From IMG/VR virus record IMGVR_UViG_3300015187_000032: a DNA stretch of 11,452 bases. The stretch is one strand, 5' to 3'. The notes under the pieces are model-generated. The model was not told the origin of the DNA. It saw only the letters and a program-made list of their open reading frames with translations, and did no database searches. Below, piece by piece: positions 1,424-8,199 of the stretch. A program made the position numbers and the translations under genes. Position 1 is the first letter of the stretch. Each line of letters begins with the position of its first letter. This stretch comes from a virus. Its lineage: Duplodnaviria > Heunggongvirae > Uroviricota > Caudoviricetes.

Positions 1424-1612
1424 TCACGAGGACTGAAGTTTCTCGCAATTAAAATTAATCAGTTTTACTTTCTGCTCTCTGGAAACGCCTGCTTCTTTTT
1501 TACCTGAGAGCATTTTTTCACATTCTGATTTCGTTAGTTTAGATTTTGAATATCTTGTCCAGTTAGTAGGAGTGCCACCTTCCTTTTCAATAGTGGCGGT
1601 AATTTTATACAT
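1424..1612 (-). CDS. ydaC: Small prophage protein of unknown function (YdaC-like, 62 aa from this start)
   Basis: Track ORF 1424..1684. ATG at rc 1610-1612 is preceded by GGAGGTG at 6-nt spacing (rc of 1613-1630), giving MYKITATIEKEGG.... The longer 86-aa start would overlap lar by about 80 nt and lacks an SD. Start choice is inference. Confidence 0.6.
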   Translation of the reverse strand: MYKITATIEKEGGTPTNWTRYSKSKLTKSECEKMLSGKKEAGVSREQKVKLINFNCEKLQSS

Positions 1613-1854: not shown

Positions 1855-2664
1855 TTATTCCTCTGAATTATCGATTACACTGTATTCCCCGGTTAATACA
1901 GAGGAATCTGCAGGATCGATTGTCAGTGGTTCCTTTTCATCCATTGATACTGCACGCTGGATCTCAATTGATACGGGCAGATATTTGAACAGGCGACGAA
2001 TAGCCGTTTTCTTTGCCATTTCTTCCCAGTGAGTTACCCACGGCCCGTTATTACTAGCTTTACTCTGGCTGCGCACCAGCTCAATCTGTTTGCGCGTCAT
2101 AACTTCAAACTGAGTACCTCCGTCTTTCAGTCTTGCGACAGCATAGACGTGGGTAACCGGGGCATCTTCGTTTTCTCCTGGGCGGTGTATTAACTTTTCA
2201 TCAAGGCCAAATTCGAAATTAAACTCGTCACCTTCACGGACAACACGGGCTGACAGGCTGGCGATTTGACCTGAACGGCGAGCCAGATCAATCATGCCGC
2301 GATAGCCAATGATTAGCTGAACGTTTTTTTTACCGCTCTTTTCGTTTTTATTACCAAAAGGCAGTAAATATGCATGACCGAGAGCGCTACCGGGCTCAAG
2401 CCCGAGCTGTGAACACTGTACGATTGCACTGACAAAACTCATAGTGTCACAGTTTCCTAACGCCGGAACTTTACGAATTTCTGTGGTGGCGATACGGATC
2501 ATACGTTCAGCCGTCATATGGCGTGGAAGAGCTGCTGCCAGTTGCTCTTTCATTGATGGCTGGTTAATAAAACTAATCACGTCGTTATTTTTAATTGCTG
2601 CTGGTGCACGGTTTCCCTGAGTTTTTTGCAGATCGGCTTTTGCGATTGGTGGTTGCTTAGTCAT
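1855..2664 (-). CDS. recT: RecT single-strand annealing protein (269 aa)
   Basis: Track ORF 1855..2721 with start trimmed to [13 protein letters not shown]... (ATG rc 2662-2664). AAGGA lies upstream at rc 2672-2676. The start overlaps the recE stop (ATGACTAA). Sequence recognised as Rac RecT. Confidence 0.9.
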
Positions 2665-5257
2665 TTGCATATTCCTTAGCCCAGCGGGGCAGTGATAACG
2701 TCTTAATAGCTGGCCATTCATCGGTATTGAGGCAGTCAGCCAGGGTTCGCAGATTGCGGTGATATTCCAGCTGACCTGCCAGTTTTGCTTCTTCGCCCAT
2801 CATGAAAATTTCAACCGGATAACGTCCGCATTCAATAGTTGTGCTGGCAACCAGAAAAACGAAAGTTGGCTGCACTCCAAACTGTGCTTCATAACCGTCA
2901 CTGTAGAATGCATCCTGAACGTGATAGCGGTAGTCGTAATAAGCGGTTTTGAATCGTTGAATATCCGCCGTAGTTTTCACGTCCATGATCCAGTGAAATT
3001 CAGGGATAATTTTGTCCGGACGGCACCGACACAAAATTCCTGTTTCAGGATCTTCCCAGTAAATTGATGATTCAGCGTGTCCGGCGCTTTCAATAAGCCA
3101 TTGCCCCAGCGGCAAAGCCATAACGCTTTGATACATGAGTTCAATTTTCCGGCCTTCTTCCGCAGTGATAACCGTTTTTCCTGTGCTTGCGCATTCCATC
3201 AGAAACGCTTTCTCTTCTTCTTTTCCGGCGTTTGTACGGCGATTAAATTCAGGTGCTACGATAAAGCGGTTACTGAATTCTTCCGGTTCAAGTACCCGGC
3301 AGTGGAAAGCGGTTCCTAAATCGAGCGTTTTTGTCTTTGTGGTGTCCACGGGGGCATTTTTACGCCACAAATACAGTGCCGGAGTATCAGCAATGTCATC
3401 GAGCTGAGACTTACTGACACCGGGACCCGCGTGGTAATTCTCATTCGAAATTCCGTAATAAATACCTGGCTCTATGTCTTCTACGATTACGGGATCTGCG
3501 ACTTCGCCAGTTTCATCACTGCAATCGCGATGCGGATCGCTGCCAGCATTCTCATTGTGCGGATGTTCAGCGCCTTCCATTTCCTCCGGATCATTTTCCT
3601 TAGCTTCAACCTGACTCTCTTCATCGAATGTTTCCTGGTATGTTGCCTCGCCCATCACCGCACCACAGTCAGGGCAGTTATCCCCGCCAGTCTGGCCGCA
3701 GGCATTGCAGGCTATTTCCGGTTCCTGTTGCACTACTGGCTCAGGTTGATTCATATCCGGGCTGGTTTTTTCCGTTTCTGGCTGGTTCTGGTGCACAGAA
3801 TCGCGAGTCTGGATCCCCTTTACCCATTTCGGATCGTTCGGGTCGCTAATTCCGTCAACAAATTCACCACGTGATGCAGCAAGCAATTTATCGGCATCGA
3901 CAGGATTTTTTGATGGAATGTTTTTCCGGGCTTCATGGAGTTCTGCCCGCAGTTTCTGATATTTCGCATCAACAGAATTTACCTGTGACTGAGCATCCAA
4001 CGGCTGCGTGTCCTGATGATGTTCAGTTGCGTCCGGTTCCATTGTTTCAGCCTCTCCCTGTTCAACTGCCGTTGTTCCAGATGGTTGCGGTTTTTCTTCA
4101 TCATCCTGTTTTCCTTCTTCTGTTACTCGCTGCGGCATCGGGGCAGAGGAGCGACCGCAGGCAATATCCACGATTTCCGGATCAGGGTTTGCATGATCGG
4201 TTTCAGTCAGTACTTTGTTCAGATATTCAGTGACGTGCGCGGGGATGACCTCGATCCCAATTGGTGCTTCTTTTACGGACGCAACCACGATGGCGCGGGA
4301 ATAATCCAGCCCGCCAGGCATGGTGATGAATTTGTCGCGGAAAACAGAAAAGGGCGGTTTATTTTCAGCGATAATTTCCTCAATGCGTTTAGCGTGTGCC
4401 GGATGAAGGTTATAGATGTCTAGATCCATTGAACGGGCCAGTACGCCAGTGGCTACGTCGCGCGCCAGTGACGTCAGATCGTGTACGAAACCTTCGCCGC
4501 GATCGGTGAGGTTTCCGCCGCCAGCATTAGCACCGGAAGCCGTGCGAGTGATGTGTGAAACACGATTACCCTTCATCCACTCTTTTGTCAGCAGTCCTCG
4601 ATCGGTGTAGTCAGCGTTCAGGTATGCTTCGAAAAAAGCAGTTATCAGTCCCAGGTTTGAATTACCAGGATTAGGGAAAACTTTGTCAGTGTCACGAACC
4701 AGTTTGTGGAGATCGCGAATTTCCAGCGGGTCGAGCAGGCTGGTTTTGTGGGAAACAGCCAGGGCAGTAACAGCCGGTAGTTCTTCAGCCCGAGCAATGT
4801 GTAATGCCTGGAGTCCGTCGCGTGAAACGTGCGTTACCGGTTTTTCGCTGCCGTGTTGAGCAAGCCAGCGAATGGGCAGTTCCTGGCCAGAAATTGGGAG
4901 TAGCATATTCTCCTCAATCTCAGTCATGTCTTCGCCGTTGACGTTGGTATTGCCTTGATAGTGAGCGTTGTCTGGTGCTGCTCCCGGTTTTAGTTCCCAT
5001 GTCATGGAGTCTTTGCTGAGTTGATAGCGTTCACTCCAGGTAAAATCGATCTCACCTTCAGCGGGCAGGTCATTAACGACAGGAAAATTCGTGGCAACAG
5101 CTTTAAAATAGCTGCTCAGTTTTTTACCTGACTTAACGATCAGGTAGTCCAGAGTGGCACAGGTCGATTCAAAATCGTCGCTTGCCCACAGGACGACGTC
5201 AGGTTCACCGGATGATTTTTTCGCTTTCCGTAACAGGAAGAGTGGTTTTGTGCTCAT
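2657..5257 (-). CDS. recE: RecE exonuclease VIII (866 aa), 5'-3' dsDNA exonuclease partner of RecT
   Basis: Single 866-aa ORF on the minus strand. C-terminal part (...[32 protein letters not shown]...DVKTT...) is the nuclease domain. Middle is acidic and low-complexity, with a Cys4 motif (CNAC-x10-CPDC). Length and sequence fit Rac RecE. Confidence 0.9.
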
Positions 5258-5328
5258 TGTTTTTTAACCTCAACTCAGATTAAAATTCGTTTTGTTCAGT
5301 GAATGATCTTGCCGGATACACACTGTTC

Positions 5329-5353
5329 ATAGCCTGCGCCATACGCAGGCTAT
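5329..5353 (-). other. Perfect 10-bp stem / 5-nt loop hairpin 6 nt downstream of the racC stop, between racC and recE
   Basis: 5329-5338 ATAGCCTGCG pairs with 5344-5353 CGCAGGCTAT; loop is CCATA. On the minus-strand transcript it is not followed by a U-tract, so it is not a canonical intrinsic terminator. Confidence 0.3.
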
Positions 5354-5358
5354 TTCTT

Positions 5359-5634
5359 TCAGATTTCACCTTTTAATTTCATTGCAATTAGAGTTGCCAG
5401 AAATTCGGCTTTTTTTTCTGTGGGCAGATTCTTTCCGGTATGCACCAGGCACATTTTTTTGACACCTTCGTGAAGTGTTTTAACGTTGCCTGATGGACCG
5501 TCGATATCAACCACAGTGAATGGGGTTTCTTTATTTTCTGTTTTAATCACGTAGCCAATACGCTTTCCTTCCAGATTAACTTCGTGAACAATGTCATCAG
5601 TAGTTACAACAGTGGCTTCATAACTGGTAATCAT
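5359..5634 (-). CDS. racC: RacC small prophage protein (91 aa)
   Basis: Track ORF 5359..5682 trimmed to ATG at rc 5632-5634 (MITSYEATVVTTDD...), preceded by AAGGAG at 6-nt spacing (rc of 5635-5650). Confidence 0.75.
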   Translation of the reverse strand: MITSYEATVVTTDDIVHEVNLEGKRIGYVIKTENKETPFTVVDIDGPSGNVKTLHEGVKKMCLVHTGKNLPTEKKAEFLATLIAMKLKGEI

Positions 5635-5879: not shown

Positions 5880-6100
5880 CACCATGACTCCGCCTTTACA
5901 GGTAAACCATCACGACCGAGGAAGACTTTAATCATGCAGTCAGTAATGCATGTTTTTGTGGTCAGGTTACGAATATAAAGTTTTCGCTTTTTAATATTGT
6001 TTGCCGAGGCAATATATGTCCGGCCGTTATGAAGAATATAATCACCAGGAGTCACACACTGACGAGGTATTTCATCAGTTCCGAAGTGATGAGCAATCAT
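5879..6100 (-). CDS. kilR: KilR: prophage Kil protein, cell-division (FtsZ) inhibitor (73 aa)
   Basis: Track ORF 5879..6118 (GTG start) trimmed to ATG at rc 6098-6100 ([14 protein letters not shown]...), with GGAG 6 nt upstream. Recognised as Rac KilR. Confidence 0.75.
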
Positions 6101-6261
6101 AATTATCTCCATTTTCACAAATGAACTTTGTTGATGCGGTGCCTGGTGCCTCCAGGTGACGTTAACCAGTTAACAATTAACGCCGGATAATCCACCCATA
6201 ACACTGATGCTTTTAACTGTTCCGCGTGCGCTTAGCCGCATTCACCGCATCACAAAATTCA

Positions 6262-6312
6262 CTTTAAAAAGGGCGGACATCAGCCGAACTTCAAGAAAAA
6301 AACTGATGCCGC
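6262..6312 (-). terminator. Candidate intrinsic terminator on the minus strand, upstream of kilR in the leftward transcription direction
   Basis: GC-rich stem 6271-6282 (GGCGGACATCAG) pairs with 6302-6312 (CTGATGCCGCC), 11 bp with one bulge and a 19-nt A-rich loop. On the minus strand it is followed directly by CTTTTTAAAG (rc of 6261-6270). Confidence 0.3.
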
Positions 6313-6531
6313 CAGGACTACACACAGCAATGTCGTTATTTACAACCGGAGGCGCACTCCCACCATTTAAATTTAACAGACAAGACCGACTCTTTATGGA
6401 TATCGGAAATGCGCCTTCGTGTTGTGCCCGGTTTTATTTCACCACCTCCGGGCTTCGGTGGTCTCGGCTATACCCCTACAGCGAGAGCTTGTGTTAACAT
6501 TTCAATACCCTTACAGTTGAGAGTTATTGAT

Positions 6532-7020
6532 ATGTTGGATGTATTTACTCCATTGTTGAAACTTTTTGCTAACGAGCCACTCGAAAGACTTATGTATACG
6601 ATTATCATTTTTGGTCTCACTCTCTGGCTGATACCGAAAGAGTTTACTGTCGCATTCAATGCTTATACTGAAATACCTTGGCTCTTTCAGATTATCGTTT
6701 TTGCCTTTTCTTTCGTGGTCGCCATTTCCTTCTCAAGATTGCGAGCACATATTCAAAAGCATTATTCATTACTACCAGAGCAACGAGTATTGCTTCGTTT
6801 ATCTGAGAAAGAAATCGCTGTATTTAAAGATTTCCTTAAAACAGGAAATCTTATTATCACTTCTCCTTGTCGTAACCCGGTTATGAAAAAATTAGAACGG
6901 AAGGGCATCATTCAACATCAGAGTGATAGCGCAAACTGTTCTTATTATCTCGTCACCGAAAAATACTCCCATTTTATGAAGTTATTCTGGAACAGCAGGA
7001 GTAGACGTTTTAATCGTTAG
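6532..7020 (+). CDS. sieB: SieB superinfection-exclusion protein (162 aa), membrane protein
   Basis: Track ORF 6409..7020 trimmed to ATG 6532 (MLDVFTPLLKLFANEPLERLMYTIIIFGLTLWLIPKEF...). Two hydrophobic segments are predicted. Encoded opposite to the surrounding leftward operon. The stop overlaps the ydaF stop on the other strand. Confidence 0.8.
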   Translation: MLDVFTPLLKLFANEPLERLMYTIIIFGLTLWLIPKEFTVAFNAYTEIPWLFQIIVFAFSFVVAISFSRLRAHIQKHYSLLPEQRVLLRLSEKEIAVFKDFLKTGNLIITSPCRNPVMKKLERKGIIQHQSDSANCSYYLVTEKYSHFMKLFWNSRSRRFNR

Positions 7021-7486: not shown

Positions 7487-7515
7487 ACTATAGGTAATGC
7501 CTAATTGATTGTCAA
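7487..7515 (-). promoter_or_regulatory. pL-like leftward early promoter: TTGACA -17 bp- TATAGT on the minus strand
   Basis: rc of 7510-7515 is TTGACA; rc of 7487-7492 is TATAGT; the spacer is exactly 17 bp. Oriented toward ydaG-ydaF-kilR-recET. Flanked and overlapped by the operator palindromes. Confidence 0.45.
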
Positions 7516-7625: not shown

Positions 7626-8102
7626 TTAAGTTCCAGTTTTTGTGATGTTCTGGCTTTTCCGTTCAGATTCTAGAGCTTTCAGATACTTACCCACTTTCAT
7701 TTCCATCGCTGCTATGTAGGCGCGAACATCGTGGTCAACCCAATCTGGTTCTGTAGCATTTCCAGATAACAGGAAAGCTACAATCGCTCTTATTTCATCA
7801 GAGGCTGCTTGATAAAGGTTGTTTATATCTAAAAGTTCACTTTTTGTATCTGAATTGGTGGGGGTTGGTATGGGGTATTCGTTAAGCCCCCAATGCTCTG
7901 GACCAACAACATCAGAAAAGAAACGCCATAATTCTGGAAGTTTATCTTTACTTATAGAGCCTTTCTTAATCCAGTCATAAATTGATGGTGGTTGGACTTT
8001 GAAGTGGCGTGCGACCTCCGCCTTTGATTTGACGGATCCCGATGCGATTTTTTTGTTAATGGCCTGCTCTATCGCTCGGCCTAAGTCTTTACCACTAAGC
8101 AT
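7626..8102 (-). CDS. racR: RacR prophage repressor (158 aa), HTH DNA-binding protein
   Basis: Track ORF 7626..8102. Divergent from ydaS across a 123-bp operator-rich intergenic region. Sequence recognised as Rac RacR. Confidence 0.85.
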   Translation of the reverse strand: MLSGKDLGRAIEQAINKKIASGSVKSKAEVARHFKVQPPSIYDWIKKGSISKDKLPELWRFFSDVVGPEHWGLNEYPIPTPTNSDTKSELLDINNLYQAASDEIRAIVAFLLSGNATEPDWVDHDVRAYIAAMEMKVGKYLKALESERKSQNITKTGT

Positions 8103-8131: not shown

Positions 8132-8195
8132 TAGGCAATCCCTACCTTTATCGTATTAGGCATAGCCTATTGACATTTGCGTTAGGCGTCGCCTA
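8132..8195. promoter_or_regulatory. Right operator cluster (OR-like): three 13-bp TAGGC-N3-GCCTA palindromes at 25-26-bp centre spacing, between racR and ydaS
   Basis: 8132-8144 TAGGCAATCCCTA (imperfect), 8157-8169 TAGGCATAGCCTA (perfect), 8183-8195 TAGGCGTCGCCTA (perfect). The 21-bp block 8155-8175 is the exact reverse complement of 7510-7530. Confidence 0.5.
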
Positions 8196-8199
8196 ATAT
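8170..8199 (+). promoter_or_regulatory. pR-like rightward early promoter: TTGACA -18 bp- TAATAT
   Basis: TTGACA at 8170-8175; best -10 candidate TAATAT at 8194-8199, overlapping the third operator. Followed by GGAG (8214-8217) and the ydaS ATG at 8226. Confidence 0.4.

What the first reader, a model, noticed from the sequence alone, without database searches (positions are those of the whole stretch)
5258..5358. Perfect 10-bp hairpin between racC and recE
The hairpin at 5329-5353 sits 6 nt after the racC stop and about 70 nt before the recE start. From established knowledge, recET is silent in wild-type Rac and is activated by sbcA mutations mapping upstream of recE. This structure is a candidate transcriptional or RNA-processing barrier. 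It lacks a U-tract on the relevant strand, so it is not a canonical intrinsic terminator.
Basis: partly seen in the sequence, partly recalled or inferred. Interest (0 to 1): 0.35.

Follow-up and report, generated by a model that had tools for sequence, protein, structure and literature searches.

The report
Antisense-strand terminator between racC and recE
The hairpin between racC and recE is real, but it works as an ordinary transcription terminator on the opposite strand, where it ends an abundant, unannotated RNA antisense to the stretch just upstream of recE in E. coli K-12.

Summary
The perfect 10-bp hairpin (5329-5338/5344-5353, 5-nt loop) is present as described, and this intergenic region is 100% identical to E. 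coli K-12. On the + strand the stem is followed by TTCTTTC. That makes it the best terminator-like site in the whole window.

Published Term-seq data for MG1655 (Adams et al. 2021, Suppl. file 1) place a strong RNA 3' end at 1417486 (+). This corresponds to window 5357, four nt past the stem (...GGCUAUUUCU-3'). The end appears on all three growth-condition sheets, with 185,664 and 146,140 reads on the two that were read.

Across about 295 Rac-like loci the stem is kept through compensatory changes, while the loop varies freely and even inverts. A U-rich tail occurs only on the + strand in all three allele types.

The hairpin is therefore a Rho-independent terminator for a transcript antisense to the racC-recE spacer. 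That transcript is probably a ~64-nt two-hairpin RNA started from a weak promoter-like site inside an invariant 36-nt block over the recE ribosome-binding site. Its 5' end and any effect on recE are inferred, not shown. No evidence supports a barrier to racC-to-recE transcription.

The parts
5329..5353 (+). Terminator stem-loop, ATAGCCUGCG-CCAUA-CGCAGGCUAU, dG about -16 kcal/mol.
   Evidence: It is the top terminator-like site in the window and is called on the + strand only.
5354..5361 (+). U-rich tail TTCTTTCA. The in vivo RNA 3' end is at 5357 (MG1655 1417486, + strand).
   Evidence: Term-seq, PMC7815308 Suppl. file 1. Coordinate mapping. T-tract score 3.0.
5294..5357 (+). Putative ~64-nt antisense RNA. 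The 3' end is mapped; the 5' end is inferred only.
   Evidence: 3' end. 5' end inferred from the candidate -10 element. Two-hairpin fold in both allele types. No + strand ORF ends before the hairpin. No Rfam family matches.
5297..5325 (+). Upstream hairpin of the putative RNA (CAGUG...CACUG). A hairpin of different sequence sits at the same place in type B alleles.
5252..5287 (.). 36-nt near-invariant block covering the recE Shine-Dalgarno sequence (GAGG, 5268-5271) and the ATG. It is the most conserved stretch of the racC-recE junction.
   Evidence: conservation profile of 45 unique sequences from loci selected by RacC only. (every such locus that extends far enough has the exact 24-mer)..
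5257..5286 (+). Candidate sigma-70 promoter for the antisense RNA: TTGTTT (5257-5262), 18-nt spacer, TAAAAT (5281-5286). Only 8 of 12 consensus matches. Inferred.
   Evidence: It falls below the threshold of the tool scan.
5359..5634 (-). racC. Its stop codon at 5359-5361 lies 2 nt beyond the mapped antisense 3' end.
2657..5257 (-). recE (exonuclease VIII).

Best explanation
The hairpin and the T-rich run that follows it on the + strand form a one-directional Rho-independent terminator. It ends a + strand transcript that runs antisense to the recE 5' untranslated region and stops 2 nt short of the racC stop codon. These points are shown: the terminator anatomy on the + strand, the abundant in vivo 3' end at that position in wild-type (Rac-repressed) K-12, and conservation of stem plus U-tail across alleles.

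The following are inferred. The transcript is a short (~64-nt), two-hairpin, non-coding RNA. It starts from a weak promoter-like site (TTGTTT-18-TAAAAT) inside the invariant block over the recE ribosome-binding site. It is expressed from the repressed prophage. It lowers recE expression by pairing with the recE leader (RNase III cleavage or a translation block) or by convergent-transcription interference. The terminator confines this antisense transcription so that it does not run into racC and kilR.
For: - The + strand has a 10-bp stem with 6 GC pairs followed by TTCTTTC. It is the best terminator-like site in the 11.4-kb window.
- Hairpin dG is -16.1 kcal/mol and the T-tract score is 3.0 on the + strand, against 0.08 on the - strand.
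- Term-seq of MG1655 gives a 3' end at 1417486 (+), with 185,664 reads (LB, OD 0.4) and 146,140 reads (LB, OD 2.0). The entry occurs three times in a file with one sheet per condition. Only 6 of roughly 70 entries on the first page of that table are higher.
- That coordinate maps to window 5357, 4 nt past the stem. The intergenic region is 100% identical to K-12.
- In about 295 loci (33-35 unique sequences) every allele keeps a stem, while the loops vary (TATGG, CCATA, TATGT, TATGC; AAC, ACT, AGT, TGT, GAC). Types A, B and B' differ by compensatory pairs.
- All three types have a U-rich tail on the + strand only.
- The two-hairpin fold and the 41-42 nt spacing from the candidate -10 element to the terminator are kept in the diverged alleles.
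- The 36-nt block holding the candidate promoter is invariant in loci selected only by RacC.
- There is no + strand ORF and no Rfam family.
Against: - No transcription start site was found in any dataset I could read.
- The candidate promoter is weak (-35 element 3 of 6) and below the scan threshold.
- The invariant block can equally be explained as the recE translation-initiation region with a hairpin that sequesters the Shine-Dalgarno sequence, or as a homology patch for module exchange.
- Covariation mostly reflects a single split between allele types A and B.
- G-U wobble evidence for strand preference is thin. Five transitions favour the + strand and one favours the - strand, and the whole-stem pairing percentages on the two strands are similar.
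- The RNA is not named in K-12 RefSeq. racC does not appear in the supplements of the RIL-seq sRNA-prediction paper.
- A 3' end 4 nt past a stable stem could also arise by exonuclease trimming of a longer RNA.
- No effect on recE has been measured.
Confidence: 0.75

Rival explanations
1. Insulating terminator without a dedicated small RNA gene. The + strand RNA comes from spurious or scattered antisense promoters inside AT-rich recE, and the terminator only stops that transcription from entering racC and kilR.
For: No consensus promoter lies near the hairpin. Other weak -10-like sites lie upstream, at 5104 and 5041. A per-gene table in PMC7373196 gives non-zero values for recE and recT on what appear to be antisense and dsRNA sheets, but the column headers were not read.
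Against: The 3' end is very abundant, comparable to the racR-associated ends. A long untranslated antisense RNA would be expected to be cut short by Rho (established knowledge). The spacer keeps its length and a hairpin in the diverged alleles. The invariant block ends exactly at the candidate -10 element.
Confidence: 0.3
2. One reading: a barrier on the gene strand, by pausing, termination or processing, that limits racC-to-recE read-through and helps keep recET silent.
For: The hairpin also forms in the - strand RNA (dG -17.3 kcal/mol) and lies 5 nt after the racC stop codon.
Against: No allele has a U-tract on the - strand (T-tract score 0.08-0.65). No - strand 3' end and no Rho-termination region are listed at this coordinate prefix, although the operon is repressed under those conditions. 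From memory only, not checked here: recE is expressed through this spacer in sbcA mutants and in lambda rev phages.
Confidence: 0.1
3. A stabiliser of the mRNA 3' end, or an RNase III site, in the polycistronic leftward mRNA. It would uncouple the stability of racC mRNA from that of recET mRNA. This could coexist with the + strand terminator role.
For: A stable stem lies directly after the racC stop codon. racC and recE have opposite effects on a retron toxin: racC blocks it and recE triggers it, according to a review of Bobonis et al. 2022 (PMC11951105). Differential expression of the two genes is therefore plausible.
Against: No - strand ends have been mapped. The conserved + strand U-tail is not explained by this role.
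Confidence: 0.1
4. A chance palindrome, or a purely DNA-level element such as a cruciform, a recombination hotspot or a protein-binding site.
For: 7.4% of shuffles give such a hairpin somewhere in the window. Loop inversions (TATGG/CCATA and ACT/AGT) show the DNA repeat undergoes template switching.
Against: An in vivo RNA 3' end lies in the U-tail. The stem is kept by compensatory changes and the U-tail is conserved.
Confidence: 0.03

Closest known systems
Rho-independent (intrinsic) terminators of E. coli, one-directional type
   Same: A GC-rich stem-loop is followed directly by a U-rich tail, and the RNA 3' end maps in the tail 7 nt from the GC core.
   Different: The tail is short and interrupted (UUCUUUC). 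It terminates a non-coding antisense transcript rather than a gene.
Phage lambda OOP RNA with its terminator (77-nt antisense RNA to cII; from memory)
   Same: It is a short, stable antisense RNA embedded in an early operon of a lambdoid phage. It is made in the lysogen and defined by a strong intrinsic terminator. Its known action is RNase III-dependent cleavage of the sense mRNA.
   Different: The sequences are unrelated. OOP overlaps the 3' end of cII. Here the mapped RNA end stops 2 nt before the racC stop codon, so the overlap is with the recE leader. No function has been shown here.
Phage P22 sar RNA (68-69 nt, from the arc-ant intercistronic region; from memory)
   Same: It is a small antisense RNA transcribed backwards across an intercistronic spacer from a promoter near the start of the downstream gene, and it represses that gene.
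   Different: sar covers the ant ribosome-binding site. Here the putative start at 5294 would leave the recE Shine-Dalgarno sequence (5268-5271) uncovered unless the true start lies further upstream.
RalA, the small-RNA antitoxin of RalR in the same Rac prophage (Rfam RF02694)
   Same: It is a + strand small RNA of the Rac early-left region that is expressed in lysogens. It is present in this window at 1428-1606 (222.7 bits).
   Different: RalA is 179 nt, has its own Rfam family and targets ralR. The element studied here has no Rfam match.

Membership tests
Intrinsic (Rho-independent) terminator | GC-rich stem-loop | tested here: met
   10 bp with 6 GC pairs; dG -16.1 kcal/mol.
Intrinsic (Rho-independent) terminator | U-rich tract directly 3' of the stem on the transcribed strand | tested here: met
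   On the + strand the tail is TTCTTTC, with a T-tract score of 3.0 (3.0-4.5 across the three allele types). On the - strand the score is 0.08-0.65, so the feature is not met there.
Intrinsic (Rho-independent) terminator | In vivo RNA 3' end within the U-tract | tested here: met
   Term-seq 3' end at MG1655 1417486 (+), equal to window 5357, with high read counts.
Intrinsic (Rho-independent) terminator | Termination independent of Rho | tested here: inconclusive
   No Rho-termination region with the coordinate prefix 14174 appears in Suppl. file 2 of PMC7815308. There is no direct in vitro test.
Cis-antisense small RNA gene | Own promoter and a primary 5' end | tested here: inconclusive
   Only a weak match was found, TTGTTT-18-TAAAAT. 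No start-site data could be read.
Cis-antisense small RNA gene | Defined 3' end and a non-coding body | tested here: met
Cis-antisense small RNA gene | Regulatory effect on the overlapping sense transcript (recE leader) | not testable with these tools
   This needs a promoter or terminator mutant and measurement of RecE.
Any described RNA family (Rfam 15) | Covariance-model match at or above the gathering score | tested here: not met
   The best hit in 5200-5420 scores 18.9 bits against a threshold of 55. The whole-window scan found nothing here.
   The operon is repressed under the conditions sampled, so the absence of a mapped end is weak evidence.

The most novel reading that the evidence does not exclude
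E. coli K-12 makes an abundant, still unnamed ~64-nt antisense RNA from the repressed Rac prophage. Its promoter lies inside the invariant recE ribosome-binding-site block and its terminator is this hairpin. It acts as a second lock on recET, by RNase III cleavage of the recE leader or by convergent-transcription interference. It thereby uncouples recE (a retron trigger) from the adjacent racC (a retron blocker).
Probability: 0.3. Interest if true: 0.6.

Novelty: new member of a known kind. Interest (0 to 1): 0.4.

Why it matters
recET is a standard recombineering system, and why it stays silent in wild-type K-12 is a decades-old observation usually credited to the prophage repressor alone. 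An abundant lysogen-expressed RNA antisense to the recE leader would add a testable post-transcriptional or interference layer. It would also add a missing RNA gene to the best-annotated bacterial genome. In addition, the spacer separates two genes reported to act oppositely on a retron defence toxin. Even without a regulatory role, the result corrects the strand assignment: this is an ordinary terminator for antisense transcription, not an odd non-canonical barrier.

Tried and rejected
1. Transcription start site of the + strand RNA. These sources gave nothing:
- The Thomason 2015 dRNA-seq paper is not held.
- The APERO, Herzel 2022, Melamed 2016 and Term-seq 2022 papers have no supplements held as text.
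- The SMRT-Cappable-seq, Cappable-seq and RIL-seq sRNA-prediction supplements have no entry at these coordinates.
- The p19 dsRNA supplement was queried with version-3 coordinates although it uses U00096.2, so its cluster table was in effect not tested.

2. sbcA alleles. The original papers are not held. The held papers only say that sbcA activates recET.

3. Literature searches. racC together with sRNA or antisense, and the hairpin sequence itself, found no description of this RNA.

4. Distant relatives. RacC is confined to Escherichia and Shigella prophages, so deep covariation is not available.

5. G-U wobble as a strand test. This is only suggestive: 5 against 1 transitions, and overall pairing of 91% on the + strand against roughly 87% on the - strand (hand count).

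6. A small + strand ORF. Rejected.

7. A bidirectional terminator. Rejected, because no allele has a U-tail on the - strand.

8. No record annotates a feature at this position.

Full report
**Identity of the window.** The window is a Rac-type prophage. On the - strand it carries recT, recE (2657-5257), racC (5359-5634), ydaE and kilR. The repressor gene racR is at 7626-8102, and ydaS, ydaT, ydaU and ydaV follow on the + strand. The best match is strain AR436 (99.9%). K-12 is about 96.7% identical over racC-ydaE. The 171 bases spanning the racC-recE spacer are 100% identical to K-12, so K-12 data apply directly.

**The observation.** The arms at 5329-5338 and 5344-5353 are perfectly complementary with a 5-nt loop. 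Five bases separate the stem from the racC stop codon (5359-5361, - strand), and 71 bases separate it from the recE ATG (5255-5257). A perfect 10-bp hairpin somewhere in the window arises in 74 of 1000 dinucleotide shuffles. The bare hairpin is therefore only mildly unusual, and a second one lies inside the sieB-like ORF at 6827-6852. The context is what makes this one non-random.

**Strand.** On the + strand the stem is followed by TTCTTTC. The consensus scan lists it as the top terminator-like site of the whole window, on the + strand only.

| Strand | Hairpin dG (kcal/mol) | T-tract score of the tail |
|---|---|---|
| + | -16.1 | 3.0 |
| - | -17.3 | 0.08 |

(All values.)

**In vivo evidence.** Supplementary file 1 of Adams et al. 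2021 (PMC7815308) reports Term-seq of wild-type MG1655. It lists a 3' end at 1417486 on the + strand, classed as antisense to racC. The read counts are 185,664 (LB, OD 0.4) and 146,140 (LB, OD 2.0). The entry occurs three times in a file that has one sheet per condition.

- On the first page of the table only 6 of roughly 70 entries are higher; sgrS has 6,222 and sokC 66,698.
- recE starts at 1417386 in NC_000913.3, and the sequences align base for base.
- The 3' end is therefore window 5357, and the RNA ends ...CGCAGGCUAUUUCU-3'. That is 4 nt past the last paired base and 7 nt past the GC core.
- No Rho-termination region with this coordinate prefix is listed in Supplementary file 2.
- Rac is repressed in these cells, so this RNA is made by the lysogen.

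**Comparative evidence.** I collected loci by RacC homology and by the recE ribosome-binding-site block. About 295 loci contain the junction, although some contigs were fetched twice. They give 33-35 unique spacer sequences. The table writes each stem on the - (gene) strand and each tail on the + strand.

| Allele type | Stem and loop (- strand) | + strand tail |
|---|---|---|
| A (window, K-12) | ATAGCCTGCG-loop-CGCAGGCTAT | UUCUUUC |
| B | GCCTGCAC-NNN-GTGCAGGC | UUUCUUUUUU(U)C |
| B' | AGGCCTGCAC-NNN-GTGCAGGCCT | UUUUCCCAUUC |

- The types differ by compensatory pairs, G-C to A-U and U-A to A-U (91.4% of cells paired, 3 pairs changed on both sides).
- These changes mostly reflect a single split between the allele types, so the covariation evidence is modest.
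- Loops vary freely: TATGG, CCATA, TATGT and TATGC in type A; AAC, ACT, AGT, TGT and GAC in type B.
- Two loop pairs are exact inversions (TATGG/CCATA and ACT/AGT), the mark of template switching at an inverted repeat.
- In every type the + strand tail is U-rich (score 3.0-4.5) and the - strand tail is not (0.08-0.65).
- Single-transition stem variants give G-U on the + strand five times and on the - strand once. This is only suggestive.

**Where the RNA starts.** This could not be settled. No start-site dataset I could read covers the site. The sequence offers no strong promoter.

- The best local candidate is TTGTTT (5257-5262), an 18-nt spacer, then TAAAAT (5281-5286). It would start an RNA near 5294 and give a 64-nt product.
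- That product folds into an upstream hairpin plus the terminator. The diverged type B spacer folds the same way with a different sequence and the same length.
- The candidate promoter lies wholly inside a 36-nt block (5252-5287). This block is invariant in 45 unique sequences from loci chosen only by RacC, while both flanks show 60-70% identity in most columns. It ends one base after the -10 element.
- The same block also contains the recE Shine-Dalgarno sequence and ATG, and an AU-rich hairpin that could sequester the Shine-Dalgarno sequence.
- All four combinations of spacer type and recE N-terminal type occur, so the block also serves as a recombination joint.
- The promoter reading is therefore plausible but not proven.
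- No + strand ORF fits, no Rfam family matches, and no record annotates a feature here.

**Mechanism.** It is shown that this is a working one-directional intrinsic terminator for + strand transcription. It is inferred that it defines the 3' end of a short lysogen-expressed antisense RNA complementary to the recE leader. That RNA could lower recE expression by duplex formation and RNase III cleavage, or by convergent-transcription interference from a promoter sitting on the recE start. In this model the terminator prevents antisense transcription from running into racC and kilR. The closest precedents are lambda OOP RNA and P22 sar RNA (from memory), and RalA in the same prophage.

A sense-strand barrier is not supported. 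There is no U-tract, no mapped end and no Rho region, although the operon is silent under the conditions sampled, so absence of an end is weak evidence. The sbcA comparison could not be made. The held papers state only that sbcA mutations activate recET.

**Known or new.** The 3' end sits in a published supplementary table but is not discussed, named or annotated. It is a new member of a known kind. A review of Bobonis et al. 2022 reports racC as a blocker and recE as a trigger of a retron toxin. That gives a reason why the two neighbouring genes might need separate control.

Noticed in passing
window 5252-5287: A 36-nt block over the recE Shine-Dalgarno sequence and ATG is invariant in all Rac-like loci, while both flanks, including the recE N-terminal coding sequence, are mosaic. 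All four combinations of spacer type and recE N-terminal type exist, so recombination occurs within the block. On the - strand RNA it can form an AU-rich hairpin that sequesters the Shine-Dalgarno sequence.
   Followed up: partly
window 5339-5343; loci L078, L094, L015, L231: The hairpin loop is found in both orientations in different strains (TATGG/CCATA in type A, ACT/AGT in type B). This is a signature of template-switch inversion at a perfect inverted repeat.
   Followed up: partly
window 6086-6326 (- strand): There are sub-threshold Rfam hits to DicF (6271-6326, 39.1 bits against 48) and STnc100 (6086-6269, 42.6 against 47) upstream of kilR. K-12 RefSeq annotates the small RNA KilS (b4833) in the corresponding kilR-upstream region.
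   Followed up: partly
window 1428-1606 (+ strand): There is a full-length RalA antitoxin small RNA (Rfam RF02694, 222.7 bits) overlapping the ralR region.
   Followed up: no
L003 (strain CP52E), locus 2768-3521: Homology to the window stops a few nt after the hairpin, at the 3' end of racC, and an IS1 transposase gene is annotated 56 nt further on. The rest of the early-left region is missing, while the hairpin, spacer and recE are intact. Insertions upstream of recE are one classical way of activating it (from memory).
   Followed up: no
window 3332-3356 (+ strand): A second strong terminator-like site on the antisense strand lies inside recE (11 pairs followed by TTTTT). It may end another antisense transcript.
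   Followed up: no
window 6827-6852: A second perfect 10-bp inverted repeat (AAGATTTCCT/AGGAAATCTT, 6-nt loop) lies inside the sieB-like ORF. It is AT-rich and has no T-tract.
   Followed up: no
window 7487-7515 (- strand) and 8170-8199 (+ strand): Near-consensus divergent promoters flank racR: TTGACA-17-TATAGT leftward and TTGACA-18-TAATAT rightward. They are likely counterparts of lambda pL and pR.
   Followed up: no
MG1655 1419679 (-) and 1420148 (-), Term-seq table: Abundant - strand 3' ends lie just downstream of racR and inside it (69,560 and 148,214 reads). These may be a racR mRNA end and an internal end.
   Followed up: no
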